Made by a program: the position numbers and the translations under genes. Below are positions 10,882 through 63,876 of a stretch of DNA of 64,000 nucleotides, piece after piece. The notes under the pieces were generated by a model, which searched no databases, was not told where the DNA came from, and was given only the letters and a program-made list of their open reading frames with translations. Each line of letters begins with the position of its first letter. Positions within the stretch are counted from its first letter, which is position 1. The DNA comes from an uncultured Candidatus Saccharibacteria bacterium (lineage in GTDB: Bacteria > Patescibacteriota > Minisyncoccia > Phycocordibacterales > GWA1-40-21): the NCBI GenBank assembly GCA_964513515.1, contig CAZEMP010000001.1, forward strand, positions 75,336-139,335, given 5' to 3'.

Positions 10882-11445
10882 ATGTTAAATATAAATTCCA
10901 TAGTTCCAAATTTTGAGGCAGAAATATATCAGAATAATAAAATTAAAAAAGTAAAGCTTTCAGATTATAAAGGCAAGTGGGTAGTTTTGGTATTCTATCC
11001 TGCAAATTTTACTTTTGTCTGTCCTACAGAGCTTGAGGATGCACAAAGATACTATAAGGAAGTGAAAAAACTTGGTGGAGAAATAATTTCTGTGAGTACA
11101 GATACAGCTTTTGCTCATAAATCATGGCATGATACTTCCCCAGCTATTAGTAAAATTGAGTATCCGATGATGGCAGATCCAACCGGTAAACTTTGTAAAC
11201 TTTTTGGAACATATATTGAAGAAGAAGGGCTATCACTAAGAGGGACATTTATTATAGATCCAGATGGTATTCTAAAAACAATTGAAATTCATAACAATGA
11301 CATTGGTAGAAGTGCAAAAGAGATGGTTAGAAAAATTAAGGCCGCTAAGTTTGTAAAGGAAAATAAAGGTAAAGTGTGTCCAGCTAGCTGGGAACCTGGT
11401 GATGATACTTTGACTCCAGGAGTTAATCTTGTTGGTAAAATTTAA
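10882..11445 (+). CDS. typical 2-Cys peroxiredoxin (AhpC/TSA family)
   Basis: FTFVCPTE peroxidatic Cys motif and a C-terminal resolving Cys (KVCPASW). Confidence 0.85.
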   Translation: MLNINSIVPNFEAEIYQNNKIKKVKLSDYKGKWVVLVFYPANFTFVCPTELEDAQRYYKEVKKLGGEIISVSTDTAFAHKSWHDTSPAISKIEYPMMADPTGKLCKLFGTYIEEEGLSLRGTFIIDPDGILKTIEIHNNDIGRSAKEMVRKIKAAKFVKENKGKVCPASWEPGDDTLTPGVNLVGKI

Positions 11446-14948: not shown

Positions 14949-15839
14949 TTATATCTTAAAGTCTCCAACCTTCATCCTTTTTATATTTAAAGCTAAAGCT
15001 GGAATACCAACTTTTTCTCCGATAGCATTGGCCAAACTTCTCATGTAGGTACCGCTTGTACAATTTACCCTGATTGAGATAATAGCAAATGCAGAGTTGG
15101 TTGCGTCACATATAATTTTCTGCTGAAAATTTATGCCGACCCCGACTCCTTCACCTTCGTTCAGTCCGTCTTTGAAAAGCTCCACGTATTCGCTTTTCAA
15201 CGCTTCGCTCGCAAAGACATTATTCCATTTTTCTAATATTTCTTCTTGGCGGAAATCTCCTTTTACTAGATTAATAGATTCTTTTATATATTTATGTAAG
15301 TCTTCTTTTGATATTGTTCTTTCCTCCAAAAGTTCAATGTTTTTTATTTCTACTTCTTTTGATTCAATTTGATCACTGTCCAATTCCTCACTTCTAGCAG
15401 AATTCCAATATTTTGATGAGTATGCTGGATATTTTTGAGAATATCGACCTATAAAAGAATTTAACAATTCCTTTATAGTGTCGTTCCCGCGAAAGCGGGA
15501 ATCTAGATTTAGTAAATCCGTCTGGATTCCCGCCTTCGCGGGAATGACAAGACCCAAAACATCGTAGGTATCTGTATTAAAACCAAAAAGTACATCTACT
15601 TCATATTCTTTATCTAAACCTAAATATTTTTCCTTATTTTTACATTCCTCTCCTACCAAAACTAAAAGTAAGCCTTCTGCGAGAGGATCGAGCCTTCCTG
15701 CATATGTCATCTTTTCATTTTTATATTCTTTATTATCTGTTTTAAATCTTTCCAAACATTCAAGTGGTGTTTCTCCCCTCTTTTTGTAAAGACTCAATAT
15801 TCCTTGTTTTGGCTTCATAATTTGATAGAATACTACCAT
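14949..15839 (-). CDS. truB: tRNA pseudouridine(55) synthase TruB (carries in-frame palindromic insertion)
   Basis: AGRLDPLAEGLLLVLVGE catalytic-Asp motif and the TruB PUA-less architecture. It includes a 21-aa insertion encoded by the GC-rich palindrome. Confidence 0.7.
   Translation of the reverse strand: MVVFYQIMKPKQGILSLYKKRGETPLECLERFKTDNKEYKNEKMTYAGRLDPLAEGLLLVLVGEECKNKEKYLGLDKEYEVDVLFGFNTDTYDVLGLVIPAKAGIQTDLLNLDSRFRGNDTIKELLNSFIGRYSQKYPAYSSKYWNSARSEELDSDQIESKEVEIKNIELLEERTISKEDLHKYIKESINLVKGDFRQEEILEKWNNVFASEALKSEYVELFKDGLNEGEGVGVGINFQQKIICDATNSAFAIISIRVNCTSGTYMRSLANAIGEKVGIPALALNIKRMKVGDFKI
15484..15545. repeat. 62-bp GC-rich nested palindromic element inserted in-frame in truB
   Basis: Two hairpins, TTCCCGCgaaaGCGGGAA and ATTCCCGCcttcGCGGGAAT, flank a spacer. 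The outer inverted repeat is GGGAATCTAGA/TCTGGATTCCC. GC content contrasts sharply with the surrounding gene. Confidence 0.6.
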
Positions 15840-25862: not shown

Positions 25863-26315
25863 ATGTCATTACACAAACAAATAAAGGATGGGATAAAAGA
25901 AGCTATGATAAAAAAAGATGCGCTTCGCCTTACGGTGCTTCGTAATATTTCCTCTGTTTTCACAAACGAAATGATTGCTAAAAAAATCACTACGGAAGAG
26001 CTTTCTGATGAAGATGCAATAAACATAATTAGAAGACTAGTTAAGCAAAGAAAAGATTCGATTGACCAATTTACAAAAGGAAATCGTATGGATCTTGTAA
26101 AAAATGAGGAGGATGAGATGAAAGTACTTGAAACTTTTCTTCCTAAAATGATGGAGAGAGGTGAAGTAGAAAAAATAATTAAAGCAAAAATATCAGAAGC
26201 CGGAACAATAGATAAAGCAAAGCTCGGTCAATTCATGGGAACAATAATGAAAGAACTGAAAGGAAAAGCTGATGGAATGCTTGTAAAAAATATTTTGGAG
26301 GAATTGGTAAAATAA
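25863..26315 (+). CDS. GatB/YqeY domain protein
   Basis: 150 aa with the typical YqeY helical pattern. Confidence 0.7.
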   Translation: MSLHKQIKDGIKEAMIKKDALRLTVLRNISSVFTNEMIAKKITTEELSDEDAINIIRRLVKQRKDSIDQFTKGNRMDLVKNEEDEMKVLETFLPKMMERGEVEKIIKAKISEAGTIDKAKLGQFMGTIMKELKGKADGMLVKNILEELVK

Positions 26316-26373
26316 TATTTATATATTAGACATTAAAAAGCATCTGATTTTAAAAAATTGGGTGCTTTTTAAT

Positions 26374-26401
26374 TTGACATAACTCAATATAGTGTTATAG
26401 T
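26374..26401 (+). promoter_or_regulatory. sigma70 consensus promoter (TTGACA-16-TATAGT)
   Basis: Exact -35 hexamer at 26374-26379 and TATAGT at 26396-26401. Confidence 0.5.
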
Positions 26402-26450
26402 TGAACTTGAGCTTTGTTCACCACGTCGTAAACAGAGAGGTTCTTAAACA

Positions 26451-26717
26451 GTGGCGGTAACGATCGATACGTCTCGCGTTTCGACGCAGGATGTCGCGTG
26501 CACCCGAAAATGGATCGCTATTCATGGCTTCTGCGGCCTTGCCTTCACCAAAGCGGAAGAGGAACGCAATCTCCCCTCTGGGACGATGGCGAGCTACTTC
26601 GGCAAGCGCAGACTGATGAAGAAGCGGTCTGTCGAGAGGCGCCCTTTGGAGAAGGCGCGCGTCCCCATTCCCAATTGCAGGGACTGGATGGCGGAGTGGG
26701 AGGCAAACCAGCCTTAA
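26451..26717 (+). other. GC-rich small transcription unit (88-aa GTG-initiated ORF or structured RNA; unresolved)
   Basis: ~57% GC. The ORF ends 6 nt before a strong terminator. An alternative 80-aa frame overlaps it, so coding status is ambiguous. Confidence 0.3.
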
Positions 26718-26723
26718 GAATGG

Positions 26724-26758
26724 GGGCGGGTCTAGTATAGACCCGCCCCTCTTTCATT
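26724..26758 (+). terminator. intrinsic terminator
   Basis: GGGCGGGTCTAgtataTAGACCCGCCC followed by CTCTTTCATTTG. Confidence 0.65.
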
Positions 26759-26803
26759 TGTTCAAAATATTAAAAACTGTTATATTTGTTTTTGTATTTC
26801 ATT

Positions 26804-26875
26804 GGCCTTATCGTCTAACGGTTAGGACACGGCCTTCTCAAGGCTGTAATCGGGGTTCGATTCCCCGTAAGGTCA
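26804..26875 (+). tRNA. tRNA-Glu (anticodon CTC)
   Basis: Manual fold. Acceptor GGCCTTA/TAAGGTC, D-arm GTCT..GGAC, anticodon stem CGGCC/GGCTG with loop TTCTCAA, T-arm CGGGG-TTCGATT-CCCCG, discriminator A. Confidence 0.75.
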
Positions 26876-26888
26876 CAAAAATAATAAA

Positions 26889-26926
26889 CCTGACACAAAG
26901 TATTGTGTCAGGTGATTATATTTTTG
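26889..26926 (+). terminator. intrinsic terminator after tRNA-Glu
   Basis: CCTGACACAaagtatTGTGTCAGG followed by TGATTATATTTTTG. Confidence 0.5.
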
Positions 26927-26931
26927 TAGAG

Positions 26932-26947
26932 CTTACGGGGAATCGAA
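26932..26947. repeat. 16-nt inverted copy of the tRNA-Glu T-arm/acceptor 3' segment
   Basis: CTTACGGGGAATCGAA is the reverse complement of tRNA positions 26856-26871. Confidence 0.5.
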
Positions 26948-27099
26948 AGACGAAGCGGGGCCCAAAGGAAAAACTAATAACACAATATAAAAATTATCAT
27001 TTGTAAATTGATAATAAAATATTTAAATGTTAAATTTTTTATAGAAGTACACGTCCCGTCACAGCGCGGGGCATAACCCAAAAAAGAGGTTCAAACCAA

Positions 27100-28170
27100 A
27101 TGACTCAGGAAAACGAGACGGAAGCGGTCCATCCACTCCTTTCAAAGGAGGTTGGGCCAATCCGAAATTGGCATGAATGGCTAGAGTACTGGAACAGGGC
27201 GGATAACTACCAGTGGATGGAGAGTTTGCTCCACACAGGTTTTAACGTCCCACTCGAGAAGATGTCCTCTGAAGAAAAAGAGTATGACGAGCTTGACCGC
27301 TACATATTCTACTTCTCTGTGGCAGACGGATGGGCACACCACTGGAAGTCTGAAGGTAGTTGGCGTGATGAGAAAGAATACGACATCGGTGTTCGTGGTA
27401 CAAACGGATCATCGAGAAAGTTCACGATACCTCAACTTCGCCGTCGATTGGCAACAAAAGCATTCGATATACTGTGTCTGAACCTATTCAGGGTAGAGTT
27501 GCGACTTAGTGGAGAAAGTGAATTCTACTGGAGCTGGGAGCGTCACATAGCTTCCAAAAAACTCTTCCCTGTGATTGTGAATTTCTTCAGGATAGAAAAA
27601 AGTAAGTTCGGTAGTGGTGCGGAGATTATTAACCTGTCTCAATGTTTTCATGGTGAAAAATCTCACAACGAACAACATGCCGTTAACTTTCTTCTACATC
27701 TGGTGGAATTCATGTGGGAGTGTAAGAACAACTGGATAACTTCCACTCCTGCGACTGAAAGGGATGAGATGATTATCCGCGTGAATGAGGCAAAACCGTG
27801 GATGATCGAGATCCTTGCTGAGCTCGGGAAACTCGATAAGTTACGCAGATGGATACTTGATCTTGATAAAACTTGTCTTTCCAAGATCAAGGAGATCGCA
27901 ATGCGTAACAGGCTTACTGGGTTTCGAGATCGAGGAGAGAACGAAGATCGCTTTGTCTCCTCACTTGATGAGGCCTGCTATGCCGGCTCAAAAGCAGCCT
28001 GGTTCCTCAAAGAGCATGAGCTAATGCAAAAGGAAAGCAAGCGCCTTGAGGCTATCCGCGAGTCTGAGAGAGCAAAGTGGGAAGTTGATCGCAGACGTGA
28101 AGCGATTCGTGAAGCCGAGAAGGCAAAAGCTGAAGCTGACCGCAAACTCAGAGACCTTAAGGGTCAGTGA
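27100..28170 (+). CDS. hypothetical protein, GC-rich (~48% GC), Trp-rich with C-terminal charged coiled coil
   Basis: 356-aa ORF with an AAGAGG SD. Codon usage is distinct from neighbouring genes. A terminator follows immediately. Confidence 0.5.
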   Translation: MTQENETEAVHPLLSKEVGPIRNWHEWLEYWNRADNYQWMESLLHTGFNVPLEKMSSEEKEYDELDRYIFYFSVADGWAHHWKSEGSWRDEKEYDIGVRGTNGSSRKFTIPQLRRRLATKAFDILCLNLFRVELRLSGESEFYWSWERHIASKKLFPVIVNFFRIEKSKFGSGAEIINLSQCFHGEKSHNEQHAVNFLLHLVEFMWECKNNWITSTPATERDEMIIRVNEAKPWMIEILAELGKLDKLRRWILDLDKTCLSKIKEIAMRNRLTGFRDRGENEDRFVSSLDEACYAGSKAAWFLKEHELMQKESKRLEAIRESERAKWEVDRRREAIREAEKAKAEADRKLRDLKGQ

Positions 28171-63379: not shown

Positions 63380-63876
63380 AAGGGGGCACCTTTCGGTACT
63401 CCCTTTCCATAACCTTTATACCTATAAGCCGAATTCTGTTTGTTGTATTACTACAACAAGATAATCATCTGTCTGGGCCAAACATTACTGTTTAGCTCAA
63501 GCGGCGCTTCCCCACACCTATTCTGTTATCATTGCTATCGTGTTTTAAGATACTAGACGATATTAACTTTTATTTACTAAGTAGACTTAATATCATTTTA
63601 CAAGTCTCGCTTAGCAACAAAAACACAATAATAGAATAGGTGTGGGGACTCGGCCTTGCACCAAGGTAAGGAATTTTGCCGTTGCACCCTTATGTTGCCA
63701 TAAGGACTATCCACTAGGGATATCTCCATTCTTTCGTCTGGAGCCGTTTCTGTTCGCACCTCTCATATTGCTATGGACGGGCGTTACCCGCTACCCTTCT
63801 CCTCAACTTTAACATTGAGGTGATGTTCGGACTTTCCTCCCCAACAAAGTTGGAGCAATTATCCAATATAAAGGCA
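63380..63876 (-). ncRNA. rnpB: RNase P RNA (bacterial type A-like) containing a 136-nt palindromic insertion
   Basis: Minus-strand motifs GGAGGAAAGTCCGAAC (P4/CR-I), GGGTAGCGGGTAACGCCCGTCC, GTGCGAACAGAAACGGCTCC, GCCGCTTGAGC and ACAGAATTCGGCTTATAGG (CR-IV). P1 pairs CCTTTATA with TATAAAGG. A terminator hairpin lies at 63377-63410. Confidence 0.65.
63512..63647. repeat. 136-nt palindromic unit embedded in the P15-P17 region of rnpB
   Basis: CCCCACACCTATTCTGTTATCATTGC...GCAACAAAAACACAATAATAGAATAGGTGTGGGGA. The conserved RNase P segment GCCGCTTGAGC follows directly. Confidence 0.55.

What the first reader, a model, noticed from the sequence alone, without database searches (positions are those of the whole stretch)
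15484..15545. GC-rich nested palindromic element inserted in-frame into truB (RPE-like)
A 62-bp element of ~60% GC lies inside the truB coding sequence. It has two perfect hairpins (TTCCCGCgaaaGCGGGAA and ATTCCCGCcttcGCGGGAAT) and an outer inverted repeat. It adds 21 codons (…PAKAGIQTDLLNLDSRFRGND…) without breaking the frame. This mirrors the Rickettsia palindromic elements that colonise ORFs. No second copy was found in this window, so the source may lie elsewhere in the genome.
Basis: partly seen in the sequence, partly recalled or inferred. Interest (0 to 1): 0.55.

Follow-up and report, generated by a model that had tools for sequence, protein, structure and literature searches.

The report
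Known hairpin repeat inside truB gene
A 69-base double-hairpin repeat of a family already known from Neisseria (dRS3/NTS) and Rickettsia (RPE-6) sits in frame in a floppy loop of the tRNA-modifying enzyme TruB of a tiny-genome Paceibacterota bacterium. It is an old inherited insertion whose DNA hairpins have been kept unusually intact.

Summary
Window 15480-15548 (minus strand) is a 69-nt palindromic insert. It is read in frame as 23 codons (V98-D120) of a TruB gene (14949-15839, minus) of a ~33% GC Paceibacterota (CPR) genome.

Each arm is a 28-nt unit: TGTC, an 8-bp stem ATTCCCGC/GCGGGAAT, a 4-nt loop and a CCAG tail. This fits the published CGTC-1 REP family (= Neisseria dRS3, = Rickettsia RPE-6). 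It matches the 28-nt NTS consensus, the ssDNA target of the GIY-YIG nuclease SsnA, with 1 and 2 mismatches. The two arms form the typical tags-outside "HH" dimer.

The same doublet occurs in genomes of many phyla. Orthologous TruBs either lack it or carry it at the same junctions, with a related spacer and a shared derived base. That indicates one old insertion inherited vertically. The peptide falls in a low-confidence loop of the structure model.

The new point is nucleotide-level conservation of the arms. The two small hairpins covary and the long hairpin does not. Rare G/C-ending codons are retained in 89% of comparisons against 26% elsewhere in truB.

This is a new member of a known kind, of moderate interest.

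The parts
14949..15839 (-). truB (tRNA pseudouridine-55 synthase, short form without a PUA domain), 296 aa, the host gene
   Evidence: Pfam TruB_N 2e-21. Homologues are Paceibacterota TruB. The AF2 model has the TruB fold. HisRS-TruB-BipA synteny is conserved in relatives.
15480..15548 (-). Whole element: a head-to-head (tags outside) dimer of CGTC-1/NTS hairpin units, 69 nt, translated in frame as VIPAKAGIQTDLLNLDSRFRGND (V98-D120)
   Evidence: The peptide lies in a loop with pLDDT < 50 at residues 102-118.
15522..15549 (-). Arm 1, an NTS unit on the coding strand: TGTC-ATTCCCGC-GAAG-GCGGGAAT-CCAG. It has 1 mismatch to the consensus CGTCATTCCCGCGMAVGCGGGAATCYRG.
   Evidence: consensus from PMC11893778.
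15479..15506 (+). Arm 2, an NTS unit on the opposite strand: TGTC-GTTCCCGC-GAAA-GCGGGAAT-CTAG. It has 2 mismatches to the consensus. The G at 15483 is the shared derived AAC-GAC state on the coding strand.
15526..15545 (.). Small hairpin of arm 1 (8-bp stem, 4-nt loop, perfect)
   Evidence: This stem covaries across truB copies.
15483..15502 (.). Small hairpin of arm 2 (8-bp stem with a terminal A.C/G.T mismatch, 4-nt loop)
15507..15521 (-). Spacer, 15 nt (ACGGATTTACTAAAT on the coding strand; TDLLN). It is AT-rich and evolves like ordinary sequence. Its homologue is present in L121, L122, L123, L201 and L203.
15201..15218 (-). Remnant of a second palindromic element type (GTCTTTGCGAGCGAAGCG; VFASEA) at the second variable loop of TruB. 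It is related context and not part of the reported element.
   Evidence: The intact form GTCTTTGCGAGCGAAGCGAAGCAATCCAG sits at the same site in L128 and L129.

Best explanation
The feature is a head-to-head dimer of the widespread CGTC-1 REP / NTS hairpin repeat. This is the same family as Neisseria dRS3/NTS and Rickettsia conorii RPE-6.

It landed in frame in a disordered surface loop of TruB, between the strand after the TDTYD motif and the helix TIKELLNSF. This happened in an ancestor of a Paceibacterota clade, and the insert has been inherited vertically since. It is translated as a 23-residue loop extension that the enzyme tolerates.

Shown here:
- identity with the family;
- in-frame insertion, with empty-site orthologues;
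- common descent of the truB site-1 copies;
- nucleotide-level preservation of each arm's own 8-bp hairpin and of its flanking GTC and C positions, against the genome's AT pressure.

Inferred:
- The unit originally spread as single-stranded DNA hairpins handled by a hairpin-specific enzyme. The Ssn-type GIY-YIG ssDNA nuclease, which binds and cuts this very 28-mer in Neisseria, is the only known partner.
- The arms are still kept intact because such a factor, or a hairpin-templated repair or conversion process, continues to act on them. The peptide itself is not thought to matter.
For: **Family fit.** The tag is TGTC, the stem is 8 bp starting with AT, the loop is 4 nt, the tail is CCA(G), and the tags face outwards. 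These are the defining features of CGTC-1 HH dimers. The arms have 1 and 2 mismatches to the 28-nt NTS consensus. The supplement of PMC3733652 lists VIPAKAGI, SFPRKRES and LDSRFRGND as peptides encoded by intragenic CGTC-1 copies in R. conorii.

**Distribution.** These came from Alpha-, Beta- and Gammaproteobacteria, Desulfobacterota, Planctomycetota, Cyanobacteria, Bacteroidales, Ignavibacteria, Dehalococcoidia, Omnitrophota and several Patescibacteria. The arm consensus was GTCATTCCCGCG(A/C)A(A/G)GCGGGAATCCAG.

**Insertion.** Orthologues exist with and without the peptide at the same loop. The loop has pLDDT < 50.

**One old insertion.** The junctions are identical, the spacer is homologous, and the derived AAC-GAC is present in 9 of the 10 site-1 copies. 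Non-truB copies in Patescibacteria have AATGAC and unrelated spacers. The nine site-1 carriers compared are on average 70% identical outside the element (lowest pair 63%).

**Nucleotide-level constraint.**
- The two small hairpins have 6 of 16 pairs with double changes, in 17 cells, and 93% of cells are paired. No shuffle of 500 reached this.
- The arm-to-arm helix shows no covariation (439 of 500 shuffles reach it).
- GC3 is 0.72 in the arms and 0.23 in the rest of truB.
- G/C-ending synonymous codons are retained in 89% of comparisons in the arms and 26% elsewhere.
- The bases reported as critical for SsnA are invariant or nearly so: GTC before the palindrome and C after it.

**Real sequence.** An independent assembly carries an identical element.
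Against: - No GIY-YIG/Ssn gene lies in the 64-kb window.
- The small GIY-YIG genes found in Patescibacteria loci (L148, L154, L206-L210) are not flanked by this motif. Two of them are instead preceded by a different hairpin, CCTGCCTGC..GCAGGCAGG. A cognate enzyme in this lineage is therefore unproven.
- The element is rare in these genomes: 22 arms in 921 kb, 13 of them inside truB. That does not look like an actively spreading repeat.
- Carriers are scattered in a rough NJ tree, with empty-site relatives among them. Several gains, or many losses, cannot be excluded.
- Apparent compensatory changes could also come from replacement by other subfamily copies. The T..A stem variant also exists outside truB.
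- No expression or protein data exist.
Confidence: 0.8

Rival explanations
1. Recurrent independent insertion. The truB loop is a hot spot that has been hit repeatedly and recently by copies of the element in different Paceibacterota lineages. The intact GC-rich arms would then reflect youth, not constraint.
For: - Carriers are scattered in the NJ tree, and close relatives have clean empty sites (P0003/P0008 against P0028/P0035).
- A second loop of TruB carries the same element in L121, L131, L203 and L205.
- Left arms occur in another reading frame in P0005, P0021 and P0042.
- truB also carries REP/RPE inserts in S. alaskensis, E. litoralis, S. maltophilia and R. conorii.
Against: - Nine of the 10 site-1 copies share the derived AAC-GAC, and all 10 share the same downstream junction ..GAC|ACA.
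- The long-spacer copies share a homologous AT-rich spacer that has diverged like ordinary sequence.
- Non-truB copies in the same phylum have symmetric AATGAC arms and unrelated spacers.
- The element is rare outside truB.
Confidence: 0.15
2. Neutral self-correction. The hairpins persist without any function, because quasi-palindromes are repaired towards perfect complementarity. The repair would be by intrastrand template switching during replication, or by gene conversion from other copies.
For: - Paired double changes in the stems alter amino acids on both sides (Ala to Val together with Ala to Thr). The pattern is therefore not driven by the protein.
- Each arm is corrected on its own, and the two arms drift apart.
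- Template switching as a source of 'compensatory' changes is established knowledge of quasi-palindrome mutagenesis (my own knowledge, not tested here).
Against: Self-templating explains stem complementarity. It does not explain retention of the unpaired head (GTC), the tail (C, CA) and the GC-rich composition against strong AT pressure. The figures are GTC 13/14, ATC 14/14 and GAC 14/14, against 11-13% usage elsewhere, and 89% against 26% retention.
Confidence: 0.2
3. Exapted functional insert. The 23-residue peptide (or the mRNA hairpin) now contributes to TruB function or regulation. Examples would be an extra RNA-contacting basic loop in a TruB that lacks the PUA domain, or a translational pause or stability element.
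For: - Amino-acid identity in the arms (0.72) is as high as the gene average (0.71), even though the site is a loop.
- G.U wobble states occur on the coding strand in three stem cells.
- The insert has persisted across deep divergence.
Against: - Many orthologues work without it.
- The peptide is predicted to be disordered.
- Stem changes are non-synonymous and coupled, so the constraint is on nucleotides, not residues.
- Mismatches that would be wobble on the opposite strand occur about as often.
Confidence: 0.1
4. Native TruB sequence that is palindromic by coincidence, or an assembly chimera.
For: Only one copy is present in the 64-kb window.
Against: - The same 28-mer arms occur in over 100 unrelated genomes.
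- Orthologues without the insert exist.
- The region is 54% GC against 33%.
- An independent assembly carries an identical element.
Confidence: 0.01

Closest known systems
CGTC-1 REP family (Di Nocera et al. 2013, PMC3733652)
   Same: The tag is CGTC/TGTC, the stem is 8 bp beginning AT, the loop is 4 nt and the tail is CCA. Units form predominantly HH dimers with a 20-100 bp or shorter spacer. Intragenic dimers encode 20-30 aa. The encoded peptides are the same (VIPAKAGI, LDSRFRGND).
   Different: That family was described in Proteobacteria, Chlorobi, Bacteroidetes, Spirochaetes and Thermotogae. Here the host is a Paceibacterota (CPR) genome with very low copy density. The copy here is an ancient orthologous insertion and not one of many dispersed repeats.
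Neisseria dRS3 / NTS, the target of the SsnA GIY-YIG ssDNA nuclease (Chenal et al. 2025, PMC11893778)
   Same: The arms match the 28-nt NTS consensus CGTCATTCCCGCGMAVGCGGGAATCYRG with 1 and 2 mismatches. The positions reported as critical for SsnA binding and cleavage are conserved.
   Different: No ssnA gene is seen in the window. In Neisseria the repeats are intergenic, in hundreds of copies and in mosaic clusters. Here there is a single doublet inside a coding sequence, and no evidence of transformation control.
Rickettsia palindromic elements (RPE-6; also RPE-1 in R. conorii truB)
   Same: These are palindromic repeats inserted in frame into housekeeping genes and translated. RPE-6 is the same sequence family (CGTC-1). 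truB is also a host gene in Rickettsia.
   Different: RPE-1, the classic case and the one found in R. conorii truB, is a longer and unrelated sequence. Rickettsia carries many copies per genome. The host lineage and ecology differ.
REPIN / RAYT systems (GTAG-type REP doublets)
   Same: The architecture is the same: two inverted REP units separated by a spacer, which can fold as one long hairpin or two small ones.
   Different: The tag is CGTC-type, not GTAG. No RAYT association is known for CGTC repeats, and none was seen here.

Membership tests
CGTC-1 REP (Di Nocera 2013) | Terminal unpaired tag CGTC (or TGTC/CCTC) | tested here: met
   Both arms begin TGTC.
CGTC-1 REP (Di Nocera 2013) | 8-bp stem with complementary A-T in the first two positions, and a 4-nt loop | tested here: met
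   ATTCCCGC-GAAG-GCGGGAAT and (G)TTCCCGC-GAAA-GCGGGAA(T).
CGTC-1 REP (Di Nocera 2013) | Short unpaired tail fitting CCA | tested here: met
   The tails are CCAG on the coding-strand arm and CTAG on the other arm.
CGTC-1 REP (Di Nocera 2013) | Dimers mostly HH (tags outside) | tested here: met
   The TGTC tags lie at 15479 and 15549, at the outer ends.
CGTC-1 REP (Di Nocera 2013) | Repeated many times in the host genome | tested here: inconclusive
   The window has one doublet in 64 kb. In 921 kb around truB of relatives there are 22 arms, 13 of them inside truB. The whole genome is not available.
NTS / Ssn-related motif (Chenal 2025) | Match to CGTCATTCCCGCGMAVGCGGGAATCYRG with at most 1 mismatch (the authors' search rule) | tested here: met
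   The coding-strand arm has 1 mismatch. The other arm has 2.
NTS / Ssn-related motif (Chenal 2025) | Genome encodes an Ssn (cd10448 GIY-YIG) protein, often flanked by the motif | tested here: inconclusive
   No GIY-YIG ORF is in the window. Small GIY-YIG genes exist in Patescibacteria loci but are not flanked by NTS. L012 (Casimicrobiaceae) shows a GIY-YIG gene next to NTS.
NTS / Ssn-related motif (Chenal 2025) | Cut by the cognate Ssn as single-stranded DNA | not testable with these tools
   This needs a biochemical assay.
Rickettsia palindromic elements (RPE) | Palindromic repeat inserted in frame in an ORF and compatible with the protein fold (surface loop) | tested here: met
   The ORF is uninterrupted. 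Orthologues without the insert exist. The insert lies in a loop with pLDDT < 50.
Rickettsia palindromic elements (RPE) | Sequence identity with a named RPE family | tested here: met
   RPE-6 = CGTC-1 according to PMC3733652. The R. conorii CGTC-1 peptides VIPAKAGI and LDSRFRGND are the same as here. No Rickettsia DNA was aligned directly.
REPIN/RAYT | GTAG-tagged REP and a RAYT (Y1 transposase) gene flanked by the repeat | tested here: not met
   The tag is TGTC, not GTAG. The literature reports no RAYT linked to CGTC repeats. The window's ORFs were not scanned for Y1 transposases.
MITE | Terminal inverted repeats plus a target-site duplication | tested here: inconclusive
   Inverted arms are present. 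No clear duplication is seen at the junctions. Filled and empty orthologues are too diverged to define one.

The most novel reading that the evidence does not exclude
The two CGTC-1/NTS hairpins inside truB are not a dead relic. On this reading they are a functional nucleic-acid element kept by selection across a deep Paceibacterota radiation. One possibility is that they are recognition sites for an Ssn-like ssDNA hairpin nuclease acting during DNA uptake, replication or recombination in these presumably competent, tiny-genome bacteria. Another is that they are a cis element controlling truB expression. The evidence not excluded by any control is stem covariation with coupled non-synonymous changes, and 89% against 26% retention of disfavoured G/C-ending codons.
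Probability: 0.2. Interest if true: 0.6.

Novelty: new member of a known kind. Interest (0 to 1): 0.4.

Why it matters
The finding extends a known trans-phylum hairpin repeat (dRS3/NTS/RPE-6/CGTC-1) to CPR/Patescibacteria. It also gives a clean natural experiment. A single orthologous intragenic copy can be followed across lineages whose TruB proteins have diverged by about 30%. That copy shows that each arm's hairpin and its flanking recognition bases are preserved at the nucleotide level, even where this changes the encoded amino acids and opposes genome-wide AT pressure. This bears on an open question: whether such repeats are merely parasitic or are maintained by a trans-acting factor such as the recently described Ssn nucleases. 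For annotation, it explains the recurrent VIPAKAGIQ / LDSRLRGND / SFPRKRES / WIPAFAGMT peptides seen in many predicted proteins.

Tried and rejected
- **Rfam.** A permissive scan of the region gave only sub-threshold chance hits (MIR9481, FtrB, RAGATH-12, CbSR3), all far below their gathering scores. No known RNA family matches.
- **Peptide search.** A synthetic 49-aa query covering the three reading frames returned only short hypothetical ORFs (Neisseria, Dyella, Lysobacter, Azospirillum, Rickettsiales, Planctomycetaceae and others). It was uninformative about host proteins.
- **Cognate nuclease.** A regex search and phmmer over all six-frame ORFs of the window found no GIY-YIG gene. Small GIY-YIG genes from Patescibacteria contigs were fetched, but none is flanked by the motif.
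- **In-frame inserts elsewhere.** I looked for in-frame internal insertions in other low-GC genomes among the 120 loci. Most copies are intergenic or lie at ORF ends.
- **First codon alignment.** It misaligned the VIPA residues. The analysis was redone with ungapped arm alignments.
- **Similarity to type I-E CRISPR repeats.** I considered this (stem CCCCGC..GCGGGG, from memory). I dropped it because the spacing (33-41 nt in tandem loci L075 and L101) and the context do not fit CRISPR.
- **TruB autoregulation.** I considered autoregulation through a T-arm mimic. The hairpin loop and sequence do not match the T-loop consensus, so I did not pursue it.

Full report
**1. The observation**

- It has two 20-nt hairpins, ATTCCCGC-N4-GCGGGAAT. 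One is perfect (15526-15545). The other has one terminal mismatch (15483-15502).
- These hairpins are embedded in 29-nt inverted arms that are 90% complementary.
- The 20-mer pattern, with up to 3 mismatches, occurs only at these two places in the 64 kb. Shuffles give 0.05 on average.
- As RNA the region folds at -46 kcal/mol, z = -10.
- The window is about 33% GC throughout. The 62-mer is 51.6% GC and the full 69-nt unit 53.6%, so "~60%" was an overestimate.

The host ORF is 14949-15839 on the minus strand, 296 aa. It matches Pfam TruB_N at 2e-21. Its homologues are TruB proteins of Candidatus Paceibacterota. Its AlphaFold model (pLDDT 78.9) finds E. coli TruB 1k8w_A as top structural match, E = 2.7e-15. 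The element is read in frame as 23 codons, V98-D120 (VIPAKAGIQTDLLNLDSRFRGND). An independent ENA assembly (L211) has a truB that differs at 2 nt and carries an identical element. This rules out an assembly artefact.

**2. What the element is**

I scanned one genome per species for the exact doublet TTCCCGC-N4-GCGGGAA ... TTCCCGC-N4-GCGGGAA. The hosts included:
- cultured Alpha-, Beta- and Gammaproteobacteria (Dyella, Duganella, Massilia, Devosia, Povalibacter, Azospirillum, Sphingopyxis);
- MAGs of Desulfobacterota, Planctomycetota, Cyanobacteria, Bacteroidales, Ignavibacteria, Dehalococcoidia, Omnitrophota, Gemmatimonas, Terriglobia and Coxiellaceae;
- several Patescibacteria.

The extracted copies share the arm (C/T)GTCATTCCCGCG(A/C)A(A/G)GCGGGAATCCAG. 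The central spacer varies. The small loops are complementary between the arms.

This matches the published CGTC-1 REP family of Di Nocera et al. 2013 (PMC3733652). That family is defined as follows:
- a CGTC or TGTC tag;
- an 8-bp stem whose first two pairs are A-T;
- a 4-nt loop;
- a CCA tail;
- mostly "HH" dimers with the tags outside;
- no dedicated transposase known.

The same paper equates CGTC-1 with Neisseria dRS3 and with R. conorii RPE-6. It notes that intragenic dimers encode 20-30 residues and that several truB genes carry REP or RPE inserts. Its supplement lists VIPAKAGI, SFPRKRES and ...LDSRFRGND as peptides encoded by intragenic CGTC-1 copies in R. conorii. These are the same peptides as here.

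Chenal et al. 2025 (PMC11893778) define the 28-nt NTS as CGTCATTCCCGCGMAVGCGGGAATCYRG. They show that the GIY-YIG protein SsnA binds and cuts it only as single-stranded DNA. They also report that ssnA genes are often flanked by the motif across bacteria. The window's arms have 1 and 2 mismatches to that consensus.

**3. It is an insertion, and an old one**

In an alignment of 30 TruB orthologues the 23 residues lie in a length-variable loop. The loop sits between the conserved D-x-L-G-x-V strand and the helix (T)I-K-E-L-L-N-S-F.
- Some orthologues have no trace of the element (P0010, P0011, P0012, P0028, P0035, P0091, P0098).
- Others carry VIPxxxGIQ...NLDSRLRGND.

The structure model is confident everywhere except in four stretches:
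- the first 7 residues;
- residues 102-113 and 115-118, which lie within the insert;
- residues 213-247, a second variable loop.

The alignment to T. maritima TruB places the insert where that enzyme has about 12 loop residues.

I retrieved 80 metagenomic truB loci and five further loci by exact protein look-up. Ten site-1 copies and four copies in the second loop were extracted.

The site-1 copies share features that point to common descent:
- all ten share the same downstream junction (..GAC|ACA ATA AA.);
- nine of the ten share the derived AAC-GAC, where the family consensus is AAT-GAC;
- in the long form, they share a homologous AT-rich spacer (ACGGATTTACTAAAT / GCAGATTCAATTAAC / GATGGTTTAATTAAC / GTAGATTCAATTAAC).

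Copies outside truB in Patescibacteria genomes have symmetric AATGAC arms and unrelated spacers. The shared features are therefore marks of common descent and not family traits.

The nine site-1 carriers compared are on average 70% identical in TruB outside the element, with the lowest pair at 63%. HisRS-TruB-BipA synteny is kept. A rough NJ tree scatters the carriers among empty-site relatives and shows decayed remnants, for example FVIPVKTDIQ in P0101. Losses, and perhaps a few regains, must have occurred. I could not resolve their number.

**4. Abundance**

Across the window and the 80 metagenome truB loci (L121-L200), 921 kb in all, only 22 arms are found with up to 3 mismatches. Shuffles give about 1. 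Thirteen of the 22 are inside truB, which makes up 6.7% of the bases. Three of the nine outside are a non-palindromic coding look-alike.

The element is therefore a low-copy resident in these genomes. The truB copy is not one of many dispersed repeats nearby. There is ascertainment bias, because the loci were ranked by similarity to a query that contains the peptide. Even so, the flanks are nearly empty.

**5. Nucleotide-level conservation (the new point)**

I compared 13 distinct truB-resident copies.
- The two small intra-arm helices are paired in 93% of cells. Six of 16 pairs show changes on both sides, in 17 cells. No shuffle of 500 reached this, and the slid controls collapse.
- On the same sequences the arm-to-arm 27-bp helix shows no covariation (3 cells; 439 of 500 shuffles reach it). 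This serves as an internal control for relatedness.

The double changes are non-synonymous on both sides. For example, GCG..GCG changes to GTG..ACG, which is Ala/Ala to Val/Thr. Protein selection cannot explain them.

Codon usage points the same way.
- Outside the element, truB has GC3 = 0.23. GTC, ATC, GAC and CGC are rare there (11%, 11%, 13% and 7% of their families).
- In the arms GC3 is 0.72, with GTC 13/14, ATC 14/14 and GAC 14/14.
- I took codon pairs from two orthologues that encode the same residue, where one uses a G/C-ending codon. The partner keeps that base in 26% of cases in the rest of truB (590/2285) and in 89% in the arms (608/683).
- The spacer evolves freely.

The invariant bases include the GTC head and the C directly after the palindrome. 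These are the positions reported as critical for SsnA cleavage and binding.

**6. Mechanism**

Shown:
- The element is a CGTC-1/NTS HH dimer. It is inserted in frame in a disordered loop and inherited vertically.
- Its arm hairpins are preserved at the DNA/RNA level.

Inferred:
- The family spreads or is handled as ssDNA hairpins by a dedicated enzyme, and Ssn is the only known partner.
- Continued action of such a factor, or hairpin-templated correction, keeps the arms intact.

I found no GIY-YIG gene in the window. Small single-domain GIY-YIG genes are common in Patescibacteria. However, the five I could inspect are not flanked by this motif. Two of them are preceded by another hairpin, CCTGCCTGC..GCAGGCAGG. 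In a betaproteobacterial locus (L012) a GIY-YIG gene does sit next to tandem NTS units. The link to Ssn in this lineage therefore remains a hypothesis.

The rivals are recent recurrent insertion, neutral quasi-palindrome self-correction, and an exapted peptide or mRNA element. They are weighed in the dedicated fields.

**7. Novelty and score**

The kind is known. In-frame REP/RPE inserts have been described, the sequence family is the same, and truB is already a known host gene. Two things are new: the host phylum (CPR/Paceibacterota), and evidence from one orthologous copy that the hairpins are maintained at the nucleotide level over deep divergence.

I rate it a new member of a known kind, with interest 0.4.

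Noticed in passing
window 15099-15218 (minus strand; TruB residues ~207-247): The second variable loop of this TruB carries an extra ~35 residues with pLDDT < 50. It begins with GTCTTTGCGAGCGAAGCG (VFASEA). This is the start of another palindromic repeat type (full form GTCTTTGCGAGCGAAGCGAAGCAATCCAG = VFASEAKQS), which sits at the same site in L128, L129 and L122 and as a full doublet in the first loop of L129 and L134. A 9-nt inverted repeat (15172-15180 / 15192-15200) follows.
   Followed up: partly
L121:1369-1425, L131:1874-1930, L203:5182-5238, L205:10646-10702: The same CGTC-1/NTS doublet (short 3-nt spacer form) also occupies the second TruB loop in four relatives. L121 and L203 carry it in both loops of the same gene.
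   Followed up: partly
L154:1343-1361, L206:9954-9973, L152 truB loop 1: A different GC-rich hairpin, CCTGCCTGC-(N1-2)-GCAGGCAGG, lies just upstream of small GIY-YIG nuclease genes in two Patescibacteria loci. A near-copy is embedded in the first TruB loop of L152 (..LPAGGNPG). It may be the cognate motif of those nucleases.
   Followed up: no
L208/L210:10001-14714 versus L209: Three small (84-103 aa) GIY-YIG genes lie within 5 kb in a Gottesmanbacteria contig. The middle one (11061-11333) is not among the genes called on an otherwise identical contig (L209). This suggests that these genes are mobile.
   Followed up: no
L012:4070-4499: In a Casimicrobiaceae MAG a 114-aa GIY-YIG gene lies directly next to two tandem NTS-like units (GTCGTTCCCGCGGATGCGGGAACCCAG). 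This is the NTS-ssn arrangement reported by Chenal et al.
   Followed up: partly
L122:10001-10939 (P0002): This TruB orthologue has a further 47-residue insertion right after the conserved ..GDECKN motif (KPRHPHCHYCTVFSLFNRIISFLPKNMEAYMKSILTIKTRWQCGCMG). No other orthologue has it, and its origin is unknown.
   Followed up: no
window 63409-63874 (minus strand): The bacterial RNase P RNA (class A, 125 bits) spans 466 nt against a 367-position model. It probably carries an insertion or expanded helices.
   Followed up: no
L046:5794-5847 and upstream; L075:2116-2199; L101:6144-6243: In some genomes the unit forms head-to-tail tandem arrays with 33-41 nt periods (Ignavibacterium, Halioglobus and others). 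This differs from the usual inverted doublet.
   Followed up: no
L169:17170-17235: The second repeat type (TCTTTGCGAGCGAAGCGAAGCAATCCATC) lies directly beside a CGTC-1 arm with a compensated stem (ATTCCGGT..ACCGGAAT). This is a small mosaic reminiscent of the Neisseria intergenic mosaic elements.
   Followed up: no
window 26001-28000: There is a local GC rise to 0.43 against ~0.33. tRNA-Glu lies at 26804-26876. The rest of the rise was not examined.
   Followed up: no
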